A stretch of 15,042 nt of DNA, taken from UHGV virus genome UHGV-0217160, one strand, 5' to 3'. Below, in pieces: positions 5,338 to 14,584 of this stretch (its first letter is position 1; each line of letters starts with the position of its first letter). The position numbers were made by a program, and so were the translations under genes. The notes beneath the pieces are model-generated. The model worked only from the letters and a program-made list of their open reading frames with translations. It did no database searches and was not told where the DNA came from. Source of the DNA: a virus.

Positions 5338-5613
5338 ATGTCGATGTACACAACCGCCCAGCTGCTGGCGGCAAATGAGCAGAAATTTAAGTTTGATCCG
5401 CTGTTTCTGCGTCTCTTTTTCCGTGAGAGCTATCCCTTCACTACGGAGAAAGTCTATCTCTCACAAATTCCGGGACTGGTAAACATGGCGCTGTACGTTT
5501 CGCCGATTGTTTCCGGTGAGGTTATCCGTTCCCGTGGCGGCTCCACCTCTGAATTTACGCCGGGATATGTCAAACCCAAGCACTTAGCATGGCTTTCTGA
5601 GGCTTTCGTGTAG
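5338..5613 (+). pseudogene. E: Major capsid protein E (lambda-type), truncated after codon 82 and fused to 9 unrelated codons
   Basis: MSMYTTAQLLAANEQKFKFDPLFLRLFFRESYPFTTEKVYLSQIPGLVNMALYVSPIVSGEVIRSRGGSTSEFTPGYVKPKH matches the lambda E N-terminus, then LAWLSEAFV-stop. Full-length E is ~341 aa, so about 75% of the gene is missing. The break coincides with the start of the island. Confidence 0.85.
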
Positions 5614-5745: not shown

Positions 5746-6981
5746 ATGGCTGGCGAGAACAAACTGAGCGACAAAGCGCTTAAAGGATATCTGGGGAAAC
5801 CCAGAGAAAAGCAGATCACCATTGCTGATGGAAAGGGGCTTTCTATTCGTGTGAGTACCAAGGGGGCTGTGAGCTTTGTTTTCTTCTACAGGTTAGCAGG
5901 TGGCCGGGCTGCTCCGGTCTGGCTAACGTTGGGTAAATATCCTGATATGTCACTCAAACAGGCAAGGGAAAAGCGCGACGAGTGCCGTGGTTGGTTGGCT
6001 GACAAACGTGATCCGCGTATCCAGATTAAGATTCAGGCTGAAGAACGCTTAAAGCCGGTCACAGTGGAGGATGCACTAAATTACTGGTATGAAAATTACT
6101 GTAAGGTGCGTCGTAAAACTCATGCTGTAACGCTTGGCAGATTTCGAAAGCATATCTTTCCCTATATCGGTCATTTGCCCGTAAATGACACTCACCTATA
6201 TGAATGGCTGGACTGTTTTGACCGAATTAAACGTAATGCACCAGTTATGGCGGCGTATGTTTTTTCTGACACTAAATTAGCTCTTCGTTTTTGTCGGGTA
6301 CGCCAGTACGCGACGTGTGATGCTTTAAAGGATTTGCGCATGAGTGATGTGGGGCAGATTGCAGGTAAGCGGGATCGGGTTCTGGATGAAGCCGAACTCG
6401 GCCAGCTCTGGAAGGCAATTTTTGTCGAGCCTGATTTAAAACTAATGTCTGAATACACGCGAAAAATGTTTGTGCTTTGTACAGTATTTGGATGTCGAAT
6501 GAGTGAAGCCCGATTATCAGAATGGAGCGAATGGGATCTCGAAAGTTGGGTTTGGACTGTACCAAAAGATCACTCAAAAACTGGTGTTGAAATCGTCAGA
6601 CCAGTACCTGAAATTCTACGACAGTGGGTAACGGATGTTCACGAAGAGACAAAACATACTGGTTATGTGCTGGGAAGTCTGCGAATTAGAGAAAGCGTAA
6701 GCAAGATTGGGGGGAAAATCGGTAAACGTTTGGGCCATGAAAAACAATGGTCACTACACGACCTTAGAAGAACGCTATCTACTCATCTAAGTGATCTCGG
6801 TGTTGAATTTTATGTAGTAGAACAACTGTTAGGCCATGCGCTACCTGGCGTGGCGGGTGTTTATAACCGGAGTAAGTTTATGGCTAAAAAACTGGATGCT
6901 CTGGAACTCTGGACTACATATCTCAATAGCATCGCAGGTGCTGATTCAAAAGTGACAATCCTCAAACAAAAGGCTGGTTAA
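5746..6981 (+). CDS. int: Tyrosine integrase, P4-type (N-terminal arm-binding domain plus C-terminal catalytic domain)
   Basis: MAGENKLSDKALKGYLGKPREKQITIADGKGLSIRVSTKGAVSFVFFYRLAGG... is a typical P4-family integrase N-terminus. The C-terminal region contains HDLRRT...LGH...GVYNRS, consistent with the R-H-R-Y catalytic set. The ORF track start at 5695 is a 5' extension. Confidence 0.9.
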   Translation: MAGENKLSDKALKGYLGKPREKQITIADGKGLSIRVSTKGAVSFVFFYRLAGGRAAPVWLTLGKYPDMSLKQAREKRDECRGWLADKRDPRIQIKIQAEERLKPVTVEDALNYWYENYCKVRRKTHAVTLGRFRKHIFPYIGHLPVNDTHLYEWLDCFDRIKRNAPVMAAYVFSDTKLALRFCRVRQYATCDALKDLRMSDVGQIAGKRDRVLDEAELGQLWKAIFVEPDLKLMSEYTRKMFVLCTVFGCRMSEARLSEWSEWDLESWVWTVPKDHSKTGVEIVRPVPEILRQWVTDVHEETKHTGYVLGSLRIRESVSKIGGKIGKRLGHEKQWSLHDLRRTLSTHLSDLGVEFYVVEQLLGHALPGVAGVYNRSKFMAKKLDALELWTTYLNSIAGADSKVTILKQKAG

Positions 6982-6982
6982 C

Positions 6983-7207
6983 ATGAAAAAAATGGCAATT
7001 GTTGATAAAAAGGGTCTGGAGTACAATCCTAACATCGATCGTATGATCCGTGAGAAAGAATGTCGGGAGCTAACCACTCTTGCGAACAGCACACGCTGGA
7101 AGCTGGAGAAGGAAGGAAAATTTCCTAAGCGGATCAAGATTGGTGCTACAGCTGTGGCGTATCGCCTCTCTGAAATTCAGGCATGGATTAAAGGGGATTG
7201 GAAGTAA
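6983..7207 (+). CDS. alpA: AlpA-family (Phage_AlpA / MerR-like HTH) transcriptional regulator
   Basis: 74 aa; RELTTLANSTRWKLEKEGKFPKRIKIGATAVAYRLSEIQAWI matches the AlpA helix-turn-helix-wing signature. It lies 1 nt after the int stop, the conserved int-alpA arrangement of P4-like elements and Gram-negative PICIs. Confidence 0.85.
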   Translation: MKKMAIVDKKGLEYNPNIDRMIREKECRELTTLANSTRWKLEKEGKFPKRIKIGATAVAYRLSEIQAWIKGDWK

Positions 7208-7239
7208 TTTTAATTATTTTTTATACGGTAGGAATAAGA

Positions 7240-7995
7240 GTGGACTATATAAGCGAAGTTGTTTTGGATAAAGTTGTGAATGAACTTGCAACAAGGGCTA
7301 AAAATGCAAGGAGAGCAAGGGCTCTAATAGGTATGACTATAATTTCTGTGGCCGTAATTCTTTCTGCGTTTATTTCCTATAGACTAACTGATGACTTTTC
7401 ATTAAAAGGGTTTAGAAGTGGTTTGTTCGCTTCTACAATTTCAAATGGATTCAATGATACATCGGGAATACGTGAAGCGTTTAATCTGGAACTATTAAAT
7501 GTATTTCCAGAAACATCGAAGAGTGATTCGATTGCCAAGTTGTTTTCTCAATTAGATGGAGGAACTCCTCAGTCTAGTGGTGAAAATGAAGTATTAAAAA
7601 AAATTACTAAGGAAGAGAAAGACGAAGCTCTTTCTTATGTAAGTAAATTGGTTGATTACTATGTCAAAGTTGCCGCAGCTGAAAATGGACGTCCGGTTAA
7701 CAAAACAGATAATACATATAGTAGTTTGATTAGTTCATTAGCTCTTTCAGCAGGTGCTGTCGGATTTGTATTATATATCTTACAGATAGCAGTTAGTTTT
7801 GTGCGTTATTACTCTAGACTGGCTGAGTTATATGACTCTCAACGGACTGCGTTAATTGCATCTGACGGCAATGTCGAAACGGCAAAAATACTTATGGATA
7901 TATTATCAAATGATCATGTCGGTTTGGGAAAAGAACCAACTACTTTATATGGAAAAGCATTAGATGTAATTGGCGAGGTTGCAAAGTCAAAATAA
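7240..7995 (+). CDS. Hypothetical membrane protein with two predicted transmembrane helices (AT-rich cargo gene)
   Basis: Open frame 7198-7995. Likely start is GTG 7240 preceded by TAGGA (a TTG at 7198 is the alternative). Hydrophobic segments MTIISVAVILSAFISY and LISSLALSAGAVGFVLYILQIAVSFV flank a ~115-aa hydrophilic loop. Hand-counted sample lines are about 35% G+C against about 60% in the lambda-type genes. No recognisable family. Confidence 0.6.
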   Translation: MDYISEVVLDKVVNELATRAKNARRARALIGMTIISVAVILSAFISYRLTDDFSLKGFRSGLFASTISNGFNDTSGIREAFNLELLNVFPETSKSDSIAKLFSQLDGGTPQSSGENEVLKKITKEEKDEALSYVSKLVDYYVKVAAAENGRPVNKTDNTYSSLISSLALSAGAVGFVLYILQIAVSFVRYYSRLAELYDSQRTALIASDGNVETAKILMDILSNDHVGLGKEPTTLYGKALDVIGEVAKSK

Positions 7996-8019
7996 TACTT
8001 GCGAAGGGGGGCGTTTTTG

Positions 8020-8220
8020 ATGTCCCTCCTGTATATTTATCGAGAGGAAAAATATAATTTATTTGGTTGTGGTTTTACTTTTAAATATATGGTGGACCAT
8101 TATTGCTCAAGGTTTTTATACATGGCTTGTAACTTAAAGACTTTCTGTCAACCCCGTACTTTGAAATCTGCACGGTCGCATTCCGTAATTGTTCTTTGTC
8201 GTTCTTGCGAGGTGTGGTGA
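8020..8220 (+). CDS. Possible small Cys-rich ORF (66 aa) downstream of the 2-TM gene
   Basis: ATG at 8020 preceded by AAGGGGGG (spacing 8). Product MSLLYIYREEKYNLFGCGFTFKYMVDHYCSRFLYMACNLKTFCQPRTLKSARSHSVIVLCRSCEVW has 6 Cys. It lies in AT-rich DNA where chance ORFs are easy, so low confidence. Confidence 0.2.
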   Translation: MSLLYIYREEKYNLFGCGFTFKYMVDHYCSRFLYMACNLKTFCQPRTLKSARSHSVIVLCRSCEVW

Positions 8221-8268
8221 TACATCTCTCATGTCAGTTGTTTTTTGACCGTGGGAACATAAAACAAA

Positions 8269-8287
8269 GGCGACAAGAATAGTCGCC
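8269..8287 (-). terminator. Candidate intrinsic terminator for the leftward RHH-SWIM operon
   Basis: GGCGAC-aagaata-GTCGCC stem-loop. On the minus strand it is followed by a U-rich run (complement of 8255-8268 AACATAAAACAAAG), about 70 nt beyond the SWIM gene stop. Confidence 0.35.
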
Positions 8288-8356
8288 AGTGGCATAACAC
8301 TAAACTTAAGCGTATTCAGAATACCAAGTTGTAGGCTGATGGAAAATAGAATTAGT

Positions 8357-8713
8357 TCAATATTTAGGTGGTTCTACAAGAGCGTTTATCATTGCTCTCA
8401 AATTATCTCGGACACTTATCCAAGTCTGTTCTGCTCGTTCTAATTCATCAGTGTACAGCTTTAATGTTTTATCTATGCCATATGTGGCTATTAAATTTAT
8501 AGCTTCTTGTAACTTTTCGGGGTTATTCCTTCTTGGGGGCGTAAATATACCTCGGATTTTTCCGGTGATTAAAGCTTTACGGTGTCTGCATAGAATACCT
8601 TTACTTCCAGCAGGACAATTACAAGTCATGATTAGCGAGCCAGAATCGTTTGATACAGTGACTATGTATACATCCAAACTACTGCTACTTGTTGCGAAGA
8701 ATTCGTATTTCAT
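8357..8713 (-). CDS. SWIM-type zinc-finger protein (hypothetical)
   Basis: 118 aa; contains C-N-C-PAGSKGIL-C-R-H (CxC-x8-CxH), the SWIM zinc-finger signature. Strong SD (AAGGAG, 8 nt upstream on the minus strand). Sits 27 nt downstream of the RHH gene in the same orientation. Confidence 0.6.
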   Translation of the reverse strand: MKYEFFATSSSSLDVYIVTVSNDSGSLIMTCNCPAGSKGILCRHRKALITGKIRGIFTPPRRNNPEKLQEAINLIATYGIDKTLKLYTDELERAEQTWISVRDNLRAMINALVEPPKY

Positions 8714-8740
8714 GTTTTAGCTCCTTGAATTCAGGTATTC

Positions 8741-8935
8741 TTATCCTTTTGGTTCAATTCCGCGACGTAGCAGCTCTTTGCGCCCTAATTCTTTAAGCCA
8801 GTTGGCTAGGCTTACCCCATCGTTACTGGCTTCGTTATCAAACTGCTCCTTCAATTCAGGAACTATGCGCATATGGAACGGTGGGGCCTTTCCTGTGCCT
8901 TTTGGTTTTTTATCGCGCTTAATAATCGTTGACAT
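8741..8935 (-). CDS. Arc/Mnt-like ribbon-helix-helix DNA-binding protein (candidate repressor)
   Basis: 64 aa; PPFHMRIVPELKEQF followed by ASNDGVSLANWLKELGRKEL parallels the Arc repressor beta-strand and helix A (PQFNLRWPREVLDLV...ENGRSVNSEIYQRV). Its start codon abuts the palindromic operators. Confidence 0.65.
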   Translation of the reverse strand: MSTIIKRDKKPKGTGKAPPFHMRIVPELKEQFDNEASNDGVSLANWLKELGRKELLRRGIEPKG

Positions 8936-8991
8936 GTGTACACCTATAGCGTTATGTTTTTATTCGATAGGTGTACACCTTAACACGTGTG
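8934..8991. promoter_or_regulatory. Divergent control region with two copies of a 12-bp palindromic operator (core GTGTACAC) plus an ACACGTGT palindrome
   Basis: ATGTGTACACCT at 8934-8945 (one mismatch from perfect) and the perfect palindrome AGGTGTACACCT at 8969-8980, centres 35 bp apart; ACACGTGT at 8984-8991. Located between the leftward RHH gene and the rightward small-ORF/primase operon. Confidence 0.5.
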
Positions 8992-9074
8992 CATTTAAAA
9001 ACGCAACGCCCCGCAGTGCGGGAACACATGCAGGGCGTCTAACCACCAACGATAGCAACAGTATCGAGGTAGCT

Positions 9075-9278
9075 ATGAGAAATCATACCACACACCCGCA
9101 AGGGCGGGACTCGCACAACCTGAATAAATACATCTGGCGTTTTATCGCCCTGAGCACCGCACAACCACGCGTAATACACATCGAGGCCGCCAGCGAACAG
9201 GAAGCCCGACTGCAATCCCCAACTGGCTACGTGATGATATTCGCCGCCCGTATTCGTCAGGAGGTGTGCCATGAATGA
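9075..9278 (+). CDS. Hypothetical protein (68 aa), first gene of the primase operon
   Basis: ATG 9075 with GAGG 6 nt upstream. The stop overlaps the next start (ATGAATGA). The track's 8778-9278 ORF is a 5' over-extension running antisense through the RHH gene. Confidence 0.45.
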   Translation: MRNHTTHPQGRDSHNLNKYIWRFIALSTAQPRVIHIEAASEQEARLQSPTGYVMIFAARIRQEVCHE

Positions 9279-9495
9279 TCTTTATTTTAAAGTGCTGACA
9301 CATGCTGAAAACGCGCTCGTTTGTGGCAAAAATATGCGAGAAATCTTATCAACCTGGCTTGATGGGACAACAAATGCGGAACACGATGAACGGGATGCTA
9401 ATTTAGCTGGAGCGTTAATTACGTTACTTGATCCTGTCATCAAAGAGCTGGATGAAGCTATAAAAATACACGACCAGAGCTATACCGGAGAATAA
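9271..9495 (+). CDS. Hypothetical protein (74 aa)
   Basis: ATG 9271 with AGGAGG 8 nt upstream; translationally coupled to both neighbours. No family recognised. Confidence 0.55.
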   Translation: MNDLYFKVLTHAENALVCGKNMREILSTWLDGTTNAEHDERDANLAGALITLLDPVIKELDEAIKIHDQSYTGE

Positions 9496-9497
9496 AA

Positions 9498-9785
9498 ATG
9501 AAAAATAAATTTTCTGGCTTTATTGCCAGCGGTCAAACTCATTCAAAAATCAGCCTTGGGGATATTTTCAAAGATAGCTATGGCTATCGGGTAAAGATTA
9601 TTTCGGTTGATGATCGCCGTGTCTCTTATTTGCGTGATGGTTATGATTTTGAATGTGTTATGCCGCGTCAGCAGTTCGAAAGAGATTTCATTCTGGTAAA
9701 AAATTGCAAGACAGATAATCAGAGGCGTTCCGCAGGCTATATCCGCAAAATTCGGGCAATGTTAGTTGCCGGAGGTAACAAATGA
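9498..9785 (+). CDS. Hypothetical protein (95 aa)
   Basis: ATG 9498 with GGAGA upstream; stop overlaps the primase start (ATGA). No family recognised. Confidence 0.55.
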   Translation: MKNKFSGFIASGQTHSKISLGDIFKDSYGYRVKIISVDDRRVSYLRDGYDFECVMPRQQFERDFILVKNCKTDNQRRSAGYIRKIRAMLVAGGNK

Positions 9786-11602
9786 AACGTGCTCCGAACT
9801 TAAAATACCAACCGCGCGACAAAATGACAGAAGTCATCATTTTTGCTGGCAGTGATGCCTGGAGCCATGCAAAAGAATGGAATGAATGGGCGGGTAAGCA
9901 TATTGCAGCAGATGATACACCACCAGTAATTCTGGGTACGGAACAACTGGAAAACCTGGATGATATGCAAATTATCGATGAAGGCCGTCATTATGTGCGT
10001 GTTTATCGTGCCGGAAAGATCGCAGAGAAAAATCTGACGAAGGTTGCGACATTACTTGCTATTGCAGGCGTAAAGGAAGCACGTTGTTACCGTAGCTTTG
10101 TTGATCGAGAGCCTGAAAACTGGACTCCGCGCCTTGTCGGCCTAAAAGCTGAAGCGGAGCATGGGGAAAGTCTGGTGATTGAACTGCCAGTGAAGAAGGC
10201 TGAGCGCAAAAATGACGAGCGTGCTTCATCTTTGGCGTTGAATCAGATGGGGGCCAGCCAGCGCGGTGAAGTTCTCCTTGCACATTACGGCGGCGAACTG
10301 GCAATCAATGCCGACTCTGACACCGTTCATCATTACAACGGCGTTGTATGGGAGCCGGTTCAGGATAAAGAGTTACAGCGTGCTATGGCGCAGATTTTCA
10401 TTGATGCGGAGATCAGCTATTCGCAGAACGCCATTAAATCGGCGGTAGATACCATGAAGTTAAGTTTGCCTGTAATGGGGAATACAGCCCGTAACCTGAT
10501 TGGATTCAGTAACGGGGTATTTGATACCAGAACTGGTAATTTTCGGGAGCATAACAAAAACGACTGGTTGTTAATTGCCAGTGAATTACCTTTCAGCCCA
10601 CCAGCAGAGGGGGAAACGCTGGCAACACATGCGCCGAATTTCTGGAAGTGGTTGCGCCGTTCGGTGGCTGAGAATGACCGCAAGGCAGATCGCGTACTGG
10701 CGGCATTATTCATGGTGCTGGCGAACCGGTACGACTGGCAGTTATTCATTGAGGTAACAGGGCCGGGGGGAAGTGGTAAAAGTGTGATGGCGGAGATTTG
10801 CACCATGCTGGCGGGTAAGGCTAATACAGTATCAGCAAGCATGAAGGCGCTGGAAGATGCAAGGGAACGTGCGTTAGTGGTTGGCTTTTCGCTGATTATC
10901 ATGCCGGATATGACCCGCTACGCTGGTGATGGGGCAGGGATTAAGGCCATTACAGGCGGTGACAAGGTGGCAATTGACCCGAAACACAAAGCCCCCTATT
11001 CAACGCGTATTCCGGCAGTAGTGCTGGCGGTTAACAATAACGCCATGTCATTCAGTGACCGCAGCGGGGGGATCTCACGTCGTCGGGTGATATTCAATTT
11101 TTCGGAAGTTGTACCGGAGAACGAACGCGATTCGATGCTGGCGGAAAAAATAGAAGGTGAGCTGGCGGTAGTGATTCGTCATCTGCTTACACGGTTTGCT
11201 GATCAGGACGAAGCCAGACGCCTGTTATATGAGCAGCAGAAATCTGAAGAAGCACTGGCGATAAAGCGAGAGGGGGATTCGCTGGTGGACTTCTGCGGCT
11301 ATCTCATGGCATCGGTAATGTGTGATGGCCTGTTAGTGGGTAATGCTGAAATTGTGCCATTCAGCCCACGCAGGTATCTCTATCATGCCTATCTGGCTTA
11401 TATGAGGGCACATGGGTTTGGTAAACCTGTAACACTGACGCGCTTCGGTAAAGATATGCCGGGGGCAATGGCGGAATATGGCAGGGAGTATATGAAACGG
11501 AAAACGAAGCACGGTTTGCGTTCAAACGTGACACTGACGGAGGAATCAGAAGACTGGATGCCATCATGTGTATCGGTCACTAATGACGATAGCAAAAATT
11601 AA
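9782..11602 (+). CDS. Phage/plasmid primase-helicase, P4-family (D5/SF3-type NTPase domain)
   Basis: 606 aa; Walker A GPGGSGKSV and a Walker-B-like hydrophobic stretch ending in D (LIIMPDM). Size and position (after int/alpA, immediately before the iteron ori) match the pri/rep gene of P4-like elements and PICIs. Confidence 0.85.
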   Translation: MKRAPNLKYQPRDKMTEVIIFAGSDAWSHAKEWNEWAGKHIAADDTPPVILGTEQLENLDDMQIIDEGRHYVRVYRAGKIAEKNLTKVATLLAIAGVKEARCYRSFVDREPENWTPRLVGLKAEAEHGESLVIELPVKKAERKNDERASSLALNQMGASQRGEVLLAHYGGELAINADSDTVHHYNGVVWEPVQDKELQRAMAQIFIDAEISYSQNAIKSAVDTMKLSLPVMGNTARNLIGFSNGVFDTRTGNFREHNKNDWLLIASELPFSPPAEGETLATHAPNFWKWLRRSVAENDRKADRVLAALFMVLANRYDWQLFIEVTGPGGSGKSVMAEICTMLAGKANTVSASMKALEDARERALVVGFSLIIMPDMTRYAGDGAGIKAITGGDKVAIDPKHKAPYSTRIPAVVLAVNNNAMSFSDRSGGISRRRVIFNFSEVVPENERDSMLAEKIEGELAVVIRHLLTRFADQDEARRLLYEQQKSEEALAIKREGDSLVDFCGYLMASVMCDGLLVGNAEIVPFSPRRYLYHAYLAYMRAHGFGKPVTLTRFGKDMPGAMAEYGREYMKRKTKHGLRSNVTLTEESEDWMPSCVSVTNDDSKN

Positions 11603-11615
11603 ACTTATGGAATAA

Positions 11616-11847
11616 CTGTTCACCACTGTTCACCCTGTCATAAATATCTTTTATATCAGTATATTATAGGGTGAACAGTTATTTATGAACTGTTCACCAA
11701 ACTATTCACTGTTCACCTTTTTGATTGTTTATTGAGCTTCAAGGGTGAACAGTGGTGAACAGTTGGTGAATAGTTTTTGTGAAACTGTTCACCCATTAAC
11801 ATTATGAATTAAAAGAGAAAATATCAAAAGGTGAACAGGTGAAGGGT
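11616..11847. repeat. Iteron-type replication origin: 9 perfect and at least 1 degenerate copy of GGTGAACAG in both orientations, with an AT-rich unwinding block
   Basis: CTGTTCACC at 11616, 11626, 11690, 11709, 11785; GGTGAACAG at 11670, 11744, 11754, 11830; GGTGAATAG at 11765. Tandem copies have 10-11 bp periodicity. AT-rich stretch at 11635-11669. Directly downstream of the primase gene. Confidence 0.8.
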
Positions 11848-11889
11848 TAAAACGCAAAAATTTTAATTTACTGCTGTGAGATAAAGCCT

Positions 11890-12135
11890 ATGACAGCGAA
11901 GCACACAAAAAAATCACAATCGCACGCCCTTGATTTGACGGAACACTGGTTAAGGGTGTCGATAAAAATCATCGACCGCAACGCCGGGGAAGGTTACGCG
12001 AAAGCACATCCCGAACTGATTAGCGCATTCATGACAACGGCGGCTGCAAACTTTGCCACTCTGACCGAACGGGAGATTGCTGAAGCGGAGGAAGTGACAA
12101 CAATCAATATTAAGTCCGGAGAGCAGGCAGCATGA
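11890..12135 (+). CDS. Hypothetical protein (81 aa)
   Basis: ATG 11890; stop overlaps the start of the SSB-like gene (ATGA). No family recognised. Confidence 0.5.
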   Translation: MTAKHTKKSQSHALDLTEHWLRVSIKIIDRNAGEGYAKAHPELISAFMTTAAANFATLTEREIAEAEEVTTINIKSGEQAA

Positions 12136-12581
12136 CGGCGCAAATATCAGTTTACGGGCGGTTGGTGGACGACCCGCAGACAAAACAGACCAGCAAGGGC
12201 ACCCCCATGACGCTGGCGCGTATGGCGGTATCACTGCCCTGCAGTCAGTCGGATGACGGTCAGGCGACGATGTGGTTATCTGTCCTGGCGTTTGGCAGAC
12301 AAGCCGACGCGCTGGCAAAGCATCACAAAGGCGAACTCCTGAGCGTGGCGGGTAACATGCAGATGAGCCAGTGGACTGGACAGAACGGCGAAACGCGGCA
12401 GGGCTGGCAGGTTATCGCAGACAGCGTAATCAGTGCGCGATCGGTGCGACCGGGCGGCAATAAAGGCCAACAGGGGCAGGCTACTGACGCACTGAACAGA
12501 GCAAAACAACAGGCAGATCAGCAAGGAAGCCAGCCACCAGTGGGAGATAATGAGCAATGGGGAGATGATATCCCGTTTTAA
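12132..12581 (+). CDS. Single-stranded DNA-binding protein-like (OB fold with SSB-type acidic C-terminal tip)
   Basis: 149 aa; N-terminal region resembles the SSB OB fold (ISVYGRLVDDPQ...MWLSVLAFGRQADALAKHHKGELLSVAGNMQMSQWTGQNGETRQGWQV), followed by a Gly/Gln-rich linker and the C-terminus DDIPF, as in E. coli SSB. Confidence 0.7.
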   Translation: MTAQISVYGRLVDDPQTKQTSKGTPMTLARMAVSLPCSQSDDGQATMWLSVLAFGRQADALAKHHKGELLSVAGNMQMSQWTGQNGETRQGWQVIADSVISARSVRPGGNKGQQGQATDALNRAKQQADQQGSQPPVGDNEQWGDDIPF

Positions 12582-12600
12582 ATATTGCCAATAAAAAAAG

Positions 12601-12624
12601 CCGGAAAAAATAAATTTTCCGGCA
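12601..12624. terminator. Perfect 9-bp-stem hairpin (GCCGGAAAA / TTTTCCGGC) between the replication module and the capsid operon
   Basis: Stem 12601-12609 pairs with 12616-12624, loop 6 nt. The A-run is 5' of the stem on the plus strand and there is no 3' U tract, so terminator function for the rightward transcript is uncertain. Confidence 0.3.
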
Positions 12625-12797
12625 TGCTACATAAATCCCGACCAAAGGGAGTGAAGATATTAACACTAATTGTCCGCACTGAAGTTGTCACCCCAAAACT
12701 TTATACAACATTGCACTCGGTTGCATGTGTTCGCATGACAAATATCGGTGATAGCATATATCCACAATTATTTTTAATGAATGCAAAGAGGATGCGT

Positions 12798-13838
12798 ATG
12801 GTTGATTTATATTCGCCTACTCAGCTTGTACAGGTGGTTAATGCTGTAGATGTACAAAAACAACTAAATGCGTTGTTTACCAGTTTGTTTTTTACTCGCT
12901 CGGTAATGTTTGAATCGCGCGATATTATTCTTGATACAATCGACGATCCAAATATCCCAATTGCAGCATTTTGTTCTCCTATGGTGGGTAGTAAAGTTTC
13001 ACGTGACGAAGGGTACGAATCAAAAACAATTCGTCCAGGCTATATGAAGCCGAAAAGCAGCATTGATCCAAATAAGTTAGCTGTGCGCCCTGCTGGTGTA
13101 TCACCTGAGCAATACAATGCTTTTGGGGCGCGTAATATTAAAGTTAAACAGGCGATTGTAAATCAAGCTAAAGCTATTCGTGCACGTATTGAATGGCTTG
13201 CCGTTCAGGCAATCACAACGGGGAAAAATATCATTGAGGGCGATGGTATTGAACGTTATGAGCTGGACTGGAATATTAAACCACAAAATATCATCACTCA
13301 GTCTGGCGGTGCTGAGTGGTCAGGTAAGGATAAAGAAACTTTTGATCCAAATGATGATATTGAGAGCTACGCAGAATTTAGTGAGGGCGTCACTAATATC
13401 ATCATTATGGGCGGTAATGTATGGAAGAAATACCGTTCATTCAGAGCGATAAAAGAGGCTCTGGATACCCGTCGTGGTTCTAATTCCGAACTGGAAACGG
13501 CCCTTAAAGACCTTGGTGATTCGGTGAGTTTTAAAGGATATATGGGCGATGTTGCGATTGTTGTTTACAGCGGGCGTTATACCGACGAGGACGGAACTGA
13601 AAAACATTTCCTTGATCCTGATTTGATGGTGCTTGGCAATACGGCTCTTCAGGGGATTGTCGCCTATGGCGGTATTCAGGATCCGGAGCTAATCCGAATG
13701 GGGCTGACTAAAGCCGAACTTGCACCGAAAAACTATATTGTGCCTGGTGATCCTGCTATTGAATATGTGCAGACACATTCAGCACCACAGCCAATACCGG
13801 CCCGCATCAATCGTTTTGTTACCGTTCGCATTGGCTAA
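12798..13838 (+). CDS. Major capsid protein, lambda gpE-family (HK97-fold), diverged island-encoded paralog
   Basis: 346 aa from ATG 12798 (AAGAGGA upstream), which aligns with the lambda E start. Alignable end to end with lambda E: MVDLYSPTQLV / MSMYTTAQLL; GYMKPK / GYVKPK; ITQSGGAEWSGKDKETFDPNDDIESYA / ITQSGGTEWSKRDKSTYDPTDDIEAYA; DTRRGSNSELETALKDLG identical over 14 of 18; GDVAIVVYSG identical. The track ORF from 12585 is a 5' over-extension through the hairpin. Confidence 0.88.
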   Translation: MVDLYSPTQLVQVVNAVDVQKQLNALFTSLFFTRSVMFESRDIILDTIDDPNIPIAAFCSPMVGSKVSRDEGYESKTIRPGYMKPKSSIDPNKLAVRPAGVSPEQYNAFGARNIKVKQAIVNQAKAIRARIEWLAVQAITTGKNIIEGDGIERYELDWNIKPQNIITQSGGAEWSGKDKETFDPNDDIESYAEFSEGVTNIIIMGGNVWKKYRSFRAIKEALDTRRGSNSELETALKDLGDSVSFKGYMGDVAIVVYSGRYTDEDGTEKHFLDPDLMVLGNTALQGIVAYGGIQDPELIRMGLTKAELAPKNYIVPGDPAIEYVQTHSAPQPIPARINRFVTVRIG

Positions 13839-13847
13839 GGGGGAGCA

Positions 13848-14189
13848 ATGGCTACTCATTACACTGAACTCATGGCTGGCACTGAAGCACTGGTGACTAC
13901 GCTGGGGATATTTTCAGCTAATAAAGGGGTAATTCCTGCATTTACGCCACTGATGCAGGAAGATGCAACAGGTGCACTGGTAGTATGGGATGGTTCGAGC
14001 GTAGGTAAAGCGGTTTATGTTTCCGCTGTACAAATCGACACCGCGAAAAAAACACAGGCTCAGGTCTATAAGACAGGTGTCTTAAATGTTGATGCTCTGA
14101 ACTGGCCTGAGTCTGTTAAAGAACTGTCAGTAAAGGTTGCAGCGTTTGTTGGCTCAGGTATTTCTGTTCAGCCGCTGGCTCGTGTGTAA
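13848..14189 (+). CDS. Head decoration protein, lambda gpD-family, diverged island-encoded paralog
   Basis: 113 aa. AFTPLMQEDATGALVVWDGSSVGKAV...VYKTGVLNVDALNWPE...AAFVGSGISV aligns with lambda [27 protein letters not shown]...[16 protein letters not shown]...[11 protein letters not shown]-rich SD AAGGGGGAG. Immediately downstream of the E-like gene, the same D/E pairing as lambda but in reverse order. Confidence 0.8.
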   Translation: MATHYTELMAGTEALVTTLGIFSANKGVIPAFTPLMQEDATGALVVWDGSSVGKAVYVSAVQIDTAKKTQAQVYKTGVLNVDALNWPESVKELSVKVAAFVGSGISVQPLARV

Positions 14190-14200
14190 AGGGGGATACA

Positions 14201-14584
14201 ATGCAGAATGATTACAATGACCTTAAGCCAATTGCCGAAATGATGTACCCGAATCAAGCTGTAGAGGAATTAAAAGCTATCGCTGACAAAATGTGTTTAA
14301 GCGAGCGCCTTGTTGATATGAATCAGGTGATGGAAATTACAACCCTGAGTCGTCGTACACTGCTAAACCTTGAGGCTAGTGGAGAGTTCCCGGAGCGTGT
14401 GCAGGTTACGGAAGGGCGTAAGGCCTGGTATTTAAGTGAAGTGATCGACTGGATAAATAATATTCCTCGCGCTTCTGAATATTGCCGCGTACCTGTCCCA
14501 AAAAAGCCAGATGCGGCGCTATGCCTCAAGATTGAGCGTGTACGCCGCAATGCACGGGATGGTCGCTATAAGCTGATTGGTTGA
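14201..14584 (+). CDS. AlpA/MerR-type winged-HTH DNA-binding protein encoded immediately upstream of cos (candidate packaging specificity or regulatory factor)
   Basis: 127 aa; MEITTLSRRTLLNLEASGEFPERVQVTEGRKAWYLSEVIDWI matches the AlpA HTH-wing pattern and parallels the Nu1 N-terminal HTH (LADIFGASIRTIQNWQEQGMPVLRGGGKGNEVLYDSAAVIKWY). SD AAAGGGGGA, like the D-like gene. Stop is 27 nt before cosQ-type sequence. Confidence 0.7.
   Translation: MQNDYNDLKPIAEMMYPNQAVEELKAIADKMCLSERLVDMNQVMEITTLSRRTLLNLEASGEFPERVQVTEGRKAWYLSEVIDWINNIPRASEYCRVPVPKKPDAALCLKIERVRRNARDGRYKLIG

What the first reader, a model, noticed from the sequence alone, without database searches (positions are those of the whole stretch)
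9075..9785. Three small translationally coupled ORFs (68, 74, 95 aa) lead the primase operon
All three have good SD sequences and overlapping stop/start codons (ATGAATGA, ATGA), ending in the primase gene, so they are co-translated with the replication initiator. None has a family I can recognise. In satellites, small genes in this position often encode derepression or helper-interference factors.
Basis: inference. Interest (0 to 1): 0.35.

Follow-up and report, generated by a model that had tools for sequence, protein, structure and literature searches.

The report
Satellite replication operon's three leader genes
These are three real small genes at the front of a phage satellite's DNA-replication operon: the first is a relative of the phage cell-division blockers P1 Icd and P4 Kil, and the other two are a conserved uncharacterised pair that sits just before the replication gene, which is ordinary for this satellite family although its control region looks new.

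Summary
ORF1 (9075-9278, 67 aa), ORF2 (9271-9495, 74 aa) and ORF3 (9498-9785, 95 aa) each have a Shine-Dalgarno (SD) sequence. They are packed against the primase gene: an 8-nt overlap, a 2-nt gap, then an ATGA overlap. RefSeq annotates them at these coordinates. All three families are under purifying selection (median dN/dS 0.32-0.41).

The claim that no family is recognisable is wrong. ORF1 is an Icd-like protein (NF033153), collinear with P4 Kil and homologous to P1 Icd. ORF3 is DUF4222 (PF13973). ORF2 is phrog_2196, a confidently predicted acidic two-helix hairpin.

The element is a helper-embedded PICI of the published 11capE type, inserted in capsid gene E of a lambdoid prophage. The operon corresponds to the P4 left operon. 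Across 88 satellite loci the order is Icd-like, 0-4 variable small genes, ORF2 family, DUF4222, primase.

The P1/P4 control RNAs (C4, isrK) are absent here. In their place are a divergent RHH gene with element-specific palindromes over the promoter, and a conserved hairpin that reads as RNA on the minus strand, which is probably a cis-antisense RNA over the ORF1 ribosome-binding site.

DUF4222 also precedes O-type initiator genes in lambdoid phages. An unannotated copy lies inside e14 ymfM in E. coli K-12.

The functions of ORF2 and ORF3 remain inferred.

The parts
8741..8935 (-). Divergent 64-aa ribbon-helix-helix (RHH) gene, annotated in RefSeq as 'HicB family antitoxin'. It is the candidate repressor of the operon.
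   Evidence: phrog_228 Arc-like repressor at 3.7e-5. Pfam HicB at only 0.016, below the cut-off. It aligns with the YlcI/YnfO-family genes at the same position in other PICIs, at 16-32% identity.
8929..8958 (+). Sigma-70-like promoter of the operon: TTGACA, 18 nt, TATGTT.
   Evidence: Consensus scan, 10 of 12 matches. The TTGAC(A/G) is conserved in most related loci. This is a prediction only.
8936..8978 (.). Perfect 12-bp inverted repeat GTGTACACCTAT / ATAGGTGTACAC flanking the -10 element. It is the candidate operator pair.
   Evidence: repeat I4. Other elements carry different paired palindromes at the same place next to their own diverged RHH genes.
8993..9077 (-). Putative cis-antisense RNA of about 80 nt. 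It comprises the 9-bp outer stem 9007-9015/9032-9040 and inner stem 9016-9019/9027-9030, a U-rich tail (8993-9005), and a 5' part complementary to the ORF1 SD and AUG.
   Evidence: 13 pairs were tested and 9 show compensatory changes. 90% of cells are paired against 80% in shuffles (0 of 500 reach the observed value) and 30-56% when the partner is slid. G-U cells number 26 on the minus strand and 3 on the plus strand. There are 56 G-U cells across 32 sequences. The RNA folds at -38.5 kcal/mol with z = -5.8. No Rfam family matches. The 5' end is inferred.
9082..9090 (-). Candidate extended -10 promoter (TGgTATGAT on the minus strand) for the antisense RNA. It lies inside ORF1 codons 3-6.
   Evidence: It reads TGGTAT(G/A)AT in every type-A leader examined, and some have a perfect TATAAT. 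The motif is weaker in leader types B and C. Not tested experimentally.
9075..9278 (+). ORF1, 67 aa, pI 9.2. An Icd-like protein, the homologue of P4 Kil and P1 Icd, and the first cistron of the operon.
   Evidence: NF033153 at 1.1e-19. The P4 ORF137 C-terminus hits the same model at 7.8e-21, and its internal Met (start of the 65-residue C-terminal stretch that corresponds to Kil) lies within a few residues of the point that corresponds to the ORF1 start. hhalign to P1 Icd gives 94.7% probability and E 6.4e-8. dN/dS is 0.1-0.4.
9271..9495 (+). ORF2, 74 aa, pI 4.6 (net charge -8). A member of phrog_2196, predicted to be an antiparallel two-helix hairpin.
   Evidence: phrog_2196 at 3.9e-35. AlphaFold2 pLDDT 86.4, helices 2-32 and 40-71. 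It lies directly upstream of DUF4222 in 79 of 88 loci. Median dN/dS 0.41. Foldseek returns only generic hairpins.
9498..9785 (+). ORF3, 95 aa, pI 9.9 (net charge +8.6). A DUF4222 domain (residues 17-68) with satellite-specific N- and C-terminal extensions.
   Evidence: PF13973 at 3.4e-22. It is always immediately followed by a primase in 88 of 88 satellite loci, with an ATGA junction in 87. In lambdoid phages it sits just ahead of the replication genes: directly before, and overlapping, an O-type gene in six of eight loci examined. The single-sequence model is all-beta with low confidence, pLDDT 59.
9782..11602 (+). Primase/helicase replication initiator (D5_N, DUF5906, Pox_D5; P4-family primase C-terminus). 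It is the last coupled cistron.

Best explanation
**Identity (shown).** The three ORFs are the front of the replication operon of a gram-negative PICI satellite. The element is helper-embedded and of the '11capE' type. The operon is the counterpart of the left operon of satellite P4.

**ORF1.** ORF1 is the Kil/Icd cistron. I infer two roles for it from P1 and P4.
- Its translation licenses expression of the cistrons behind it. ORF2 starts 5 nt before the ORF1 stop. ORF3 starts 2 nt after the ORF2 stop, and its SD lies in the last ORF2 codons. The primase starts inside the ORF3 stop (ATGA).
- Its product arrests host cell division, or kills the cell, when made in quantity.

**Control.** Control differs from P1 and P4, because no C4/CI or isrK RNA is present. 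Instead there are two elements.
- A divergent RHH protein probably represses the promoter through two palindromes that flank the -10 element.
- A minus-strand RNA of about 80 nt probably pairs with the ORF1 SD and AUG. It ends in a conserved hairpin followed by a U-rich tail.

Relief of this control would switch on all four cistrons together. Relief could come from the helper, or from late transcription reading in from the surrounding prophage.

**ORF2 and ORF3.** ORF2 is an acidic helical hairpin and ORF3 is a basic DUF4222 protein. They form a conserved pair made together with the initiator. My best guess is that they act on the host, or modulate the initiator, rather than being part of the replication machinery. 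I hold this guess weakly.
For: **Shown: context**
- The genes are int, alpA, primase, SSB, capsid and decoration, all co-oriented, inside a split prophage gene E. This matches the published 11capE (PMC10111431).

**Shown: family membership and coding selection**
-.

**Shown: architecture across 88 loci**
- An Icd-like ORF lies upstream in 83 loci.
- An ORF2-family gene lies directly before DUF4222 in 79 loci, with a gap of 2-17 nt.
- DUF4222/primase is an ATGA junction in 87 loci.
- The distance from the Icd stop to the ORF2 start ranges from -8 to over 1000 nt.

**Shown: control region**
- RHH and palindromes differ from element to element, while the leader and ORF1 stay about 90% identical.
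- The hairpin shows covariation and strand-specific G-U pairs.
- The window has no C4 or isrK.
- Sister satellites and P4 do carry them at this exact spot.
- Of 78 loci with enough flank, 57 have the hairpin inside the scoring window and 11 have C4. None has both. Of the other ten, eight have a profile hit just outside the window.

**Precedent**
- The P1 record shows C4 sites a2/b2, then icd ('required for expression of ant'), then an ATGA junction to ant1.
- P4 Kil/Eta and termination control are described in PMC10111431.
- An Icd-like gene was required for phage-triggered cell death in a six-gene locus that includes a primase.
- rep plus ori alone replicates in EcCICFT073, so the small genes are not needed for replication itself.
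Against: - There are no expression data of any kind.
- Both promoters are consensus matches only.
- The antisense promoter is good in type-A leaders but weak in types B and C.
- The minus-strand hairpin could instead be an attenuator in a long leader of the RHH mRNA.
- No terminator or Rho site inside the operon was identified, so polarity after untranslated ORF1 rests on analogy only.
- The ORF1 protein is only 30-39% identical to P4 Kil and P1 Icd over about 46 residues. Its toxicity is untested.
- DUF4222 precedes several different initiator types: D5/P4-type primase, DUF927, O-type proteins, and in mEp390 and ST147-VIM1phi7.2 proteins that did not match the SfII O query. This argues against a specific partner but does not say what the protein does.
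- The ORF3 structure model is poor. Fold and PDB searches gave nothing significant.
Confidence: 0.6

Rival explanations
1. ORF2 and ORF3 are replication accessory factors that act directly on the initiator. They could be copy-number or loading regulators, as Cnr (orf106) is for P4 alpha. They are made stoichiometrically with the initiator through translational coupling.
For: - DUF4222 is strictly adjacent to the initiator gene in 88 of 88 satellites, and lies directly before and overlapping an O-type gene in six of eight phage loci examined.
- The ORF2 family is adjacent to DUF4222 in 79 of 88 loci.
- P4 has a small gene directly before alpha. From my own knowledge, that gene is cnr, a negative regulator that binds alpha.
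- The opposite charges of ORF2 and ORF3 suggest that they form a complex.
Against: - The downstream partner varies between families: D5/P4-type primase, DUF927 and O-type proteins.
- There is no similarity to P4 orf106.
- rep plus ori alone supports replication in EcCICFT073.
- Phage copies of DUF4222 lack ORF2 and lack the satellite-specific extensions.
Confidence: 0.25
2. The front of the operon is mainly an abortive-infection device. A cue from an infecting phage derepresses it, and the Icd-like protein, perhaps together with ORF2 and ORF3, stops or kills the cell. This protects the population and interferes with the phage.
For: - In ECOR61, a locus of six linked genes that includes an Icd-like gene and a primase gave cell death on expression of phage orf24. 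Removing the Icd-like gene abolished the effect.
- A P4 prophage gave cell death on expression of P22 Abc1, and kil was suspected.
- From my own knowledge, P4 Kil kills when over-expressed.
Against: - The ECOR61 protein has a long N-terminal extension that is absent here.
- None of the three ORFs hits a PADLOC defence model.
- Arresting division is also what a replicating satellite would want, so the phenotype does not separate defence from self-interest.
Confidence: 0.3
3. ORF2 or ORF3 is a helper derepressor or anti-repressor, the functional analogue of P4 epsilon.
For: - ORF2 occupies the position of epsilon, directly after the Kil cistron with the same 8-nt overlap.
- It is small and acidic, as many protein inhibitors are.
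Against: - There is no sequence similarity to epsilon.
- In most related satellites the ORF2 family is separated from the Icd-like gene by other genes and stays next to DUF4222 instead.
- A satellite embedded in its helper is induced together with it and has less need to derepress it (PMC10111431).
- DUF4222 also occurs in the helper-type phages themselves.
Confidence: 0.08
4. The ORFs are chance open frames or untranslated leader sequence.
For: None beyond their small size.
Against: Family matches, third-position bias in substitutions, and conserved SD and start positions across dozens of diverged loci.
Confidence: 0.02

Closest known systems
Left operon of satellite phage P4 (eta/kil, epsilon, orf151, orf106, alpha)
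   Same: - The first cistron carries the same Icd-like domain and has the same length: Kil is 65 aa and ORF1 is 67 aa.
- The next gene overlaps it by 8 nt.
- A string of small genes ends in a P4-family primase.
- An immunity element sits in the leader just upstream of kil.
   Different: - The window has no CI/C4 or isrK RNA.
- The window has no long Eta frame starting after alpA.
- The middle genes are unrelated to those of P4.
- A divergent RHH gene, palindromes and a minus-strand hairpin RNA are present instead.
immI operon of phage P1 (c4 RNA, icd, ant1/2)
   Same: - ORF1 is homologous to Icd (hhalign 94.7%, E 6.4e-8).
- In both, icd is a short first cistron whose stop overlaps the next start (ATGA in P1). 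The P1 record describes icd as an 'inhibitor of cell division; apparently required for expression of ant'.
   Different: - The downstream genes here are replication genes, not an antirepressor.
- The C4 RNA and its a/b target sites are absent here.
Gram-negative PICIs and helper-embedded PICIs (EcCICFT073; Eco567.11capE)
   Same: - The same element type and zone order: integration, variable zone, replication, late.
- Inserted in prophage capsid gene E and carrying its own capsid gene.
- 100% identical copies occur in E. coli chromosomes.
   Different: - The papers I read do not analyse the small genes before pri.
- They state that a master repressor is unclear.
- They report C4/isrK hits in only some elements.
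e14 prophage ymfM (SfiC cell-division inhibitor) region
   Same: - A 59-aa DUF4222 ORF lies directly before, and overlaps, the replication gene oweE. This is the same placement as ORF3 before the primase.
   Different: - The e14 copy is unannotated and lies out of frame inside ymfM.
- It lacks the N- and C-terminal extensions of ORF3 and has no ORF2 partner.
- Whether YmfM or the DUF4222 protein causes filamentation has not been separated.
immI region of phage P22 (mnt, arc, sar RNA, ant), from my own knowledge and not examined here
   Same: A divergent RHH repressor, operators over the promoter, and a short cis-antisense RNA covering a ribosome-binding site in the operon.
   Different: The proteins were not compared. 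The resemblance is one of logic only and is a lead, not a test.

Membership tests
Icd-like / Kil (NCBIfam NF033153) | Matches the family model above its cut-off | tested here: met
   70.1 bits against a cut-off of 25, E 1.1e-19, ORF1 residues 19-62.
Icd-like / Kil (NCBIfam NF033153) | Homology to the named members P1 Icd and P4 Kil | tested here: met
   P4 ORF137 residues 85-132 hit the same model at 7.8e-21 and align collinearly with ORF1. P1 Icd gives hhalign probability 94.7% and E 6.4e-8. Plain BLAST is weak: E 0.005 to P4, and P1 is not found.
Icd-like / Kil (NCBIfam NF033153) | Short first cistron of an immunity-controlled operon, coupled to the next gene | tested here: met
   It is the first ORF after the predicted promoter and overlaps ORF2 by 8 nt. 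P1 and P4 have the same layout.
Icd-like / Kil (NCBIfam NF033153) | Translation controlled by a C4/CI-type RNA | tested here: not met
   No C4, c4-a1b1 or isrK match at E up to 1 in the window. Sister satellites and P4 do have them.
Icd-like / Kil (NCBIfam NF033153) | Inhibits cell division or kills on expression | not testable with these tools
   Needs induced expression and microscopy.
DUF4222 (Pfam PF13973) | Matches the Pfam model above the gathering score | tested here: met
   78.2 bits against 27, E 3.4e-22, covering the full model 2-53 of 53.
phrog_2196 | Full-length match to the family profile | tested here: met
   E 3.9e-35, residues 1-73 against profile positions 1-73 of 74. The family has no known function.
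P4 epsilon (helper derepressor) | Sequence similarity of ORF2 to epsilon | tested here: not met
   No BLASTP alignment at E up to 100.
P4 orf106 (Cnr; DUF5375) | Sequence or profile similarity of ORF3 to orf106 | tested here: not met
   hhalign probability 0.1%.
Helper-embedded gram-negative PICI | int, alpA and pri co-oriented, in an element of about 11 kb inserted in a prophage late gene | tested here: met
   The integrase ORF in frame with the RefSeq CDS, AlpA (PF05930) and the primase all lie on the plus strand. The prophage capsid gene is split into an N-terminal part (window 5338-5583) and a C-terminal part beyond the window. This matches PMC10111431.
HicAB toxin-antitoxin (RefSeq label of the neighbouring RHH gene) | HicB domain above the cut-off and an adjacent HicA toxin | tested here: not met
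   HicB scores 15.5 bits against a cut-off of 21. There is no HicA gene. The neighbours are a SWIM protein and ORF1.
Known anti-phage defence systems (PADLOC) | Any of the three ORFs matches a defence model | tested here: not met
   No match at E up to 0.01.

The most novel reading that the evidence does not exclude
This large branch of enterobacterial satellites has replaced the P1/P4 C4-type immunity RNA with an undescribed two-part switch. The switch consists of an element-specific RHH repressor with its operator, and a cis-antisense RNA that covers the ribosome-binding site of the Kil/Icd cistron. In addition, the DUF4222 protein that is always co-translated with the replication initiator, rather than the annotated YmfM frame, is the SfiC-type inhibitor of host cell division. 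Its hidden copy in e14 would then explain the ymfM filamentation phenotype.
Probability: 0.15. Interest if true: 0.7.

Novelty: new variant of a known kind. Interest (0 to 1): 0.45.

Why it matters
- About a third of complete E. coli genomes (1709 of 5426) carry a stretch similar to this module, yet the papers I read on these satellites do not treat it.
- Placing ORF1 as the Kil/Icd cistron ties PICI replication control to the well-studied P1 and P4 immunity logic.
- The RHH/operator pair and the minus-strand RNA are concrete candidates for the 'missing' repressor of gram-negative PICIs.
- DUF4222 becomes a testable family. It is always made just before an initiator, and it lies unannotated inside a K-12 gene that is credited with SOS-induced filamentation.

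Tried and rejected
**Searches that found nothing useful**
- Rfam on the window at E up to 1 gave only chance miRNA-like matches and nothing near the ORFs.
- The word-indexed protein search found only 4 clusters for ORF2 and 8 near-identical clusters for ORF3. The full HMMER scan for ORF2 found 17 hits, of which about 12 are small proteins. The real spread of the family only showed up with a profile run on fetched loci.
- The genome-contig scan with the ORF2 alignment first failed for lack of a conserved stretch, then returned a single locus.
- PDB profile searches for ORF2 and ORF3 gave nothing below E 0.29.
- PADLOC and Pfam gave nothing for the variable cargo genes.

**Structure work**
The single-sequence model is weak (pLDDT 59). 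Its Foldseek matches are non-significant: Sm/LSm-like barrels with E above 0.5.
- The ORF2 model is confident, but it matches only generic helical hairpins.

**Ideas rejected**
- ORF2 = epsilon and ORF3 = Cnr were rejected for lack of similarity.
- A plus-strand leader structure, such as a nut- or put-like site or a plus-strand terminator, was considered. I rejected it because the non-Watson-Crick cells are A-C on the plus strand and G-U on the minus strand, and no U-tract follows the hairpin on the plus strand.
- The 77-aa ORF antisense to ORF1 (9039-9272) is taken to be a by-product of the ORF1 frame.

**Not available**
- The Forti 1999 paper on P4 kil/eta is not held. P4 details come from PMC10111431 and from my own knowledge.
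Full report
**1. The observation**

The window holds three consecutive plus-strand ORFs followed by a 606-aa primase gene at 9782-11602.
- ORF1: 9075-9278, 67 aa.
- ORF2: 9271-9495, 74 aa.
- ORF3: 9498-9785, 95 aa.

Each ORF starts with ATG and has a purine-rich SD 5-7 nt upstream: GAGG at 9066, AGGAGG at 9259, GGAG at 9487. The primase has GGAGG at 9771.

The junctions are as follows.
- ORF1 and ORF2 overlap by 8 nt (ATGAATGA).
- ORF3 and the primase overlap by 4 nt (ATGA).
- ORF2 and ORF3 do not overlap. Two bases separate them.

RefSeq annotates exactly these three CDSs in E. coli chromosomes that are 100% identical over 8700-9900.

**2. They are genes**

Each ORF matches a family.
- ORF1 matches NCBIfam NF033153 'host cell division inhibitor Icd-like' at E 1.1e-19.
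- ORF3 matches Pfam DUF4222 at E 3.4e-22.
- ORF2 matches phrog_2196 at E 3.9e-35.

I collected 88 related satellite loci: 80 from IMG/VR plus E. coli and Shigella loci. Across them, substitutions concentrate at third codon positions. Median dN/dS is 0.40 (ORF1), 0.41 (ORF2) and 0.32 (ORF3), against 0.28 for the N-terminus of the primase. Chance ORFs are excluded.

**3. Context**

The three ORFs lie in an element of about 11 kb. Its genes, in order and all on the plus strand unless marked, are:
- integrase
- AlpA
- a 265-aa unknown protein
- a SWIM protein (minus strand)
- a 64-aa RHH protein (minus strand)
- ORF1, ORF2, ORF3
- primase
- an 81-aa unknown protein
- SSB
- a gpE-like capsid protein
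- a head-decoration protein
- an HTH protein

[quoted passage not shown] The prophage terminase, portal, protease and gpD genes fill the left part of the window.

This is the published helper-embedded PICI type '11capE' (Tommasini, Mageeney and Williams 2023, PMC10111431). That paper defines four zones: integration, Bro, replication and late. It notes that C4 and isrK RNA models hit some PICIs. It does not analyse the small genes before pri.

**4. ORF1 is the Kil/Icd cistron**

The old P4 'cI protein' ORF137, which is the eta/kil frame, carries the same NF033153 domain at residues 85-132 (E 7.8e-21). Its internal Met starts a 65-residue C-terminal stretch, matching the 65 aa I recall for P4 Kil, and it lies within a few residues of the point that corresponds to the ORF1 start in the alignment.

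That obsolete annotation also explains why PHROGs calls the ORF1 family a 'transcriptional repressor'.

A profile of ORF1 relatives aligns to P1 Icd with 94.7% probability and E 6.4e-8. Plain BLAST barely sees either relative.

In P1 the record shows, in order, the C4 RNA, its targets a2/b2, icd, and an ATGA junction to ant1. The record describes icd as 'inhibitor of cell division; apparently required for expression of ant'.

In P4, Kil is the first translated gene after the constitutive promoter. The CI RNA sits just upstream of it, and translation of the region prevents early termination (PMC10111431; also my own knowledge of Forti et al. 1999, which is not held). P4 epsilon overlaps the end of kil by 8 nt, exactly as ORF2 overlaps ORF1.

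**5. The module is widespread and has a fixed frame with a variable middle**

Some part of 9075-9785 is matched in 1709 of 5426 complete E. coli genomes. The ORF1 part is about 90% identical at the nucleotide level. Only 100 genomes match 80% or more of the stretch.

Annotated examples show this order:
1. a divergent small regulator
2. the Icd-like gene
3. one to four small genes
4. DUF4222
5. a primase, either D5/P4-type or DUF927

Counts across the 88 loci:
- An Icd-like ORF lies upstream in 83.
- An ORF2-family gene lies directly before DUF4222 in 79, with a gap of 2-17 nt and never an overlap.
- DUF4222 is followed at once by a primase in all 88. The junction is ATGA in 87 and GTGA in one.
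- The distance from the Icd stop to the ORF2 start ranges from -8 nt (17 loci, including the window) to more than 1 kb.

So there is a cargo slot between the Icd-like gene and the ORF2-DUF4222-primase trio. The cargo genes I sampled have no Pfam or PADLOC match.

**6. ORF2 and ORF3 as proteins**

ORF2:
- It is acidic, with pI 4.6 and net charge about -8.
- It is confidently predicted (pLDDT 86) as two long antiparallel helices.
- Foldseek finds only generic hairpins such as ROP-like and designed bundles.
- Many family members end in ..TGE, and those codons form the SD for the next gene.

ORF3:
- It is basic, with pI 9.9 and net charge about +8.6.
- The DUF4222 core spans residues 17-68. The N-terminal extension and the basic C-terminal extension are specific to satellites.
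- The only model I could obtain, from a single sequence, is a low-confidence small beta-barrel (pLDDT 59).
- Its Foldseek matches are non-significant Sm/LSm-like folds.

Neither protein resembles P4 epsilon or orf106. The opposite charges and the constant adjacency suggest a complex. That is inference.

**7. DUF4222 goes with initiators of unrelated families**

In lambdoid phages and prophages a 59-76-aa DUF4222 ORF with its own SD sits just ahead of the replication genes. I examined SfII, Eeyore, mEp390, KpF5, vB_EcoS-733R5, ST147-VIM1phi7.2, a Stx2a phage and e14.
- In six of the eight it lies directly before, and overlaps, an O-type or 'primosomal' gene.
- In mEp390 and ST147-VIM1phi7.2 the next gene is annotated differently and did not match the SfII O query.
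- In the Stx2a phage the DUF4222 ORF lies inside a 277-aa annotated CDS, and the O gene starts about 850 nt further on.

Together with the two primase types in satellites, this makes a specific protein partner less likely.

In EcCICFT073, rep plus ori alone under an arabinose promoter replicates a plasmid (Fillol-Salom 2018, PMC6092414). A CFT073-serotype genome carries the same Icd...DUF4222-primase layout. The small genes are therefore not needed for replication as such.

**8. Control region**

A sigma-70-like promoter (TTGACA, 18 nt, TATGTT; 8929-8958) overlaps the start codon of the divergent RHH gene. A perfect 12-bp inverted repeat flanks its -10 element. The outer 8 bases of each arm form the palindrome GTGTACAC.

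Other elements keep the TTGAC(A/G). Each has its own pair of palindromes, such as GTGTTNAACAC, TGTGCGCACA or GTGGGCCACAC. Each also has an RHH/YlcI-YnfO-type protein only 16-32% identical to the one here. Meanwhile the leader and ORF1 next door stay about 90% identical. This is the pattern of an immunity repressor and its operator.

Fillol-Salom 2018 states that a global repressor of gram-negative PICIs is unclear.

**9. A conserved minus-strand RNA hairpin in the ORF1 leader**

A hairpin lies about 35-70 nt before ORF1, with stems spanning 9007-9040. It shows compensatory changes.

On 28 distinct sequences:
- 9 of 13 pairs change on both sides.
- 90.3% of cells pair, against 80.1% in shuffles. 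None of 500 shuffles reaches the observed value.
- Only 30-56% of cells pair when the partner column is slid.

The non-Watson-Crick cells are strand-specific. There are 26 G-U cells if the RNA is read from the minus strand and 3 if it is read from the plus strand. A second alignment of 32 sequences has 56 G-U cells on the minus strand.

On the minus strand the stem is followed by a T-rich stretch, 51% T over 12 nt. The simple scan also calls it terminator-like on that strand.

The minus strand of ORF1 codons 3-6 reads TGgTATGAT, an extended -10 motif. It is present in every type-A leader, and some have a perfect TATAAT.

An RNA from about 9077 to 8993 would be complementary to the ORF1 SD and AUG. 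It folds at -38.5 kcal/mol with z = -5.8.

In leader types B and C the 5' hairpin changes by compensation (CGAUA/UAUCG becomes CGUUA/UAACG) and shows the anti-SD CUCC in its loop.

I therefore propose a cis-antisense RNA. The alternative is that the hairpin is an attenuator in a long leader of the RHH mRNA. The RNA ends and the promoter are inferred, not shown.

**10. The hairpin type and the C4 type are alternatives**

The window has no Rfam match near the ORFs. Six sister satellites and P4 carry isrK, C4 or c4-a1b1 just upstream of their Icd-like ORF.

Among 78 loci with enough flank, local profiles gave these results:
- The hairpin is found in 57.
- C4 is found in 11.
- Both are found in none.
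- Of the ten scored as neither, eight have a hairpin hit just outside my distance window, and one more (L091) has a diverged hairpin visible by eye.

Two different RNA devices thus occupy the same slot before the same cistron. This supports a regulatory role for the hairpin RNA.

**11. How it most likely works**

Shown:
- the gene order
- the coupling geometry
- family membership
- purifying selection
- the operator-like repeats
- the structured minus-strand element

Inferred from P1 and P4:
- ORF1 translation is the gate. When it is blocked, the distal cistrons are not expressed.
- When the block is relieved, ORF2, ORF3 and the primase are made in a fixed ratio.
- Relief could come from a helper cue acting on the RHH protein or the antisense RNA.
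- Relief could also come from late transcription reading through from the prophage, as Tommasini et al. propose for this element type.

Inferred from family precedent:
- The ORF1 protein arrests division or kills. Silas et al. found an Icd-like gene necessary for phage-triggered cell death in a six-gene locus that includes a primase. They also suspected kil in P4-mediated death.

The role of the ORF2-ORF3 pair is open. I rank the options in this order: host-directed action, then modulation of the initiator, then helper derepression.

**12. Side finding in E. coli K-12**

The e14 DUF4222 ORF lies at L005 5002-5181, which is MG1655 1204001-1204180. It matches PF13973 at E 8.6e-19, and it has an AAGGAG SD and a TTG start. 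It is not annotated. It lies out of frame inside the 3' half of ymfM and overlaps the first 11 nt of oweE.

In the shared 47 codons, across seven phages:
- In the DUF4222 frame, differences fall 142/86/482 at codon positions 1/2/3, and amino-acid identity is 66-98%.
- The ymfM frame shows dN above dS and 28-54% identity among all but the three near-identical Klebsiella-type loci.

The N-terminal 56 codons of ymfM do look constrained, with dN/dS about 0.3 between e14 and Klebsiella phages. These are therefore two overlapping genes.

Ansari et al. cloned the ymfM ORF alone in pBAD24. In a text search I found no mention of frame-specific mutants. That clone holds 53 of the 59 DUF4222 codons together with the SD. 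Which product causes the filamentation has not been separated.

**13. Verdict**

- ORF1 belongs to a known, experimentally studied family.
- ORF3 and ORF2 belong to named but uncharacterised families.
- The element type is published.

Three things are not in the papers I could read:
- the fixed Icd / cargo slot / ORF2-DUF4222-primase architecture
- the RHH-plus-antisense-RNA control that replaces C4
- the hidden DUF4222 gene in e14

Noticed in passing
window 5338-5583 and 5746-14584 (continues beyond the window; L001 8639-20619): [quoted passage not shown] This is the published helper-embedded PICI '11capE' configuration (PMC10111431).
   Followed up: yes
window 8993-9090, minus strand: A conserved hairpin with a U-rich tail lies opposite the ORF1 leader. 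It shows compensatory changes and has G-U pairs only on the minus strand. A candidate extended -10 promoter lies inside ORF1 codons 3-6. No Rfam family matches. It is mutually exclusive with C4/isrK in sister satellites.
   Followed up: partly
window 8741-8978; L008-L011, L017, L018 at the same position: The divergent RHH/YlcI-YnfO-type gene and the paired palindromes over the operon promoter differ from element to element, while the adjacent leader and ORF1 stay about 90% identical. This is a candidate immunity repressor and operator for gram-negative PICIs. The RefSeq label 'HicB family antitoxin' is not supported: the score is below the cut-off and there is no HicA.
   Followed up: partly
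L005 5002-5181 (E. coli K-12 MG1655 1204001-1204180, e14 prophage): An unannotated 59-aa DUF4222 ORF (PF13973, E 8.6e-19) lies out of frame inside the 3' half of ymfM, the reported SfiC division inhibitor, and overlaps the start of oweE. In the overlap, selection acts on the DUF4222 frame only. The published ymfM clone contains 53 of its 59 codons.
   Followed up: partly
L008 1568-2707, L010 1892-2704, L011 1664-2704, L017 3065-4201: In many PICIs the Icd-like frame stays open for 270-379 codons upstream. This is an Eta-like long ORF starting after alpA, and it runs antisense through the annotated YlcI/YnfO gene. RefSeq splits it into a 'partial' pseudogene plus the short Icd-like CDS. In the window only 118 upstream codons remain open (8721-9074).
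   Followed up: no
window 9271-9785: ORF2 is strongly acidic (about -8) and ORF3 is strongly basic (about +8.6). They are adjacent in 79 of 88 loci, which suggests a complex. Many ORF2-family members, including the one in the window, end in ..TGE, and those codons encode the SD of ORF3.
   Followed up: partly
window 11687-11776: Repeated GTTCACC / TGAACAG motifs form a long imperfect palindrome just after the primase gene. This is probably the satellite origin of replication. It surfaced only as a chance miRNA-like Rfam match.
   Followed up: no
window 7198-7995 and 8357-8713: A 265-aa protein with no recognised family (only a weak match to phrog_2611, E 6e-7) and a 118-aa SWIM zinc-finger protein occupy the zone where other PICIs carry Bro-type genes. 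The SWIM protein has a weak PADLOC match to PDC-S62 (E 4.9e-5). They could be defence or accessory cargo.
   Followed up: no
L002 (LR881103.1, 'Escherichia phage vB_KppS-Ant', 16.5 kb): An induced, packaged element has an Icd-like domain at the C-terminus of a 324-aa protein, then a 64-aa ORF, then an ORF2-family gene overlapping the primase, with no DUF4222. It shows that the ORF2 family can sit directly before the initiator.
   Followed up: partly
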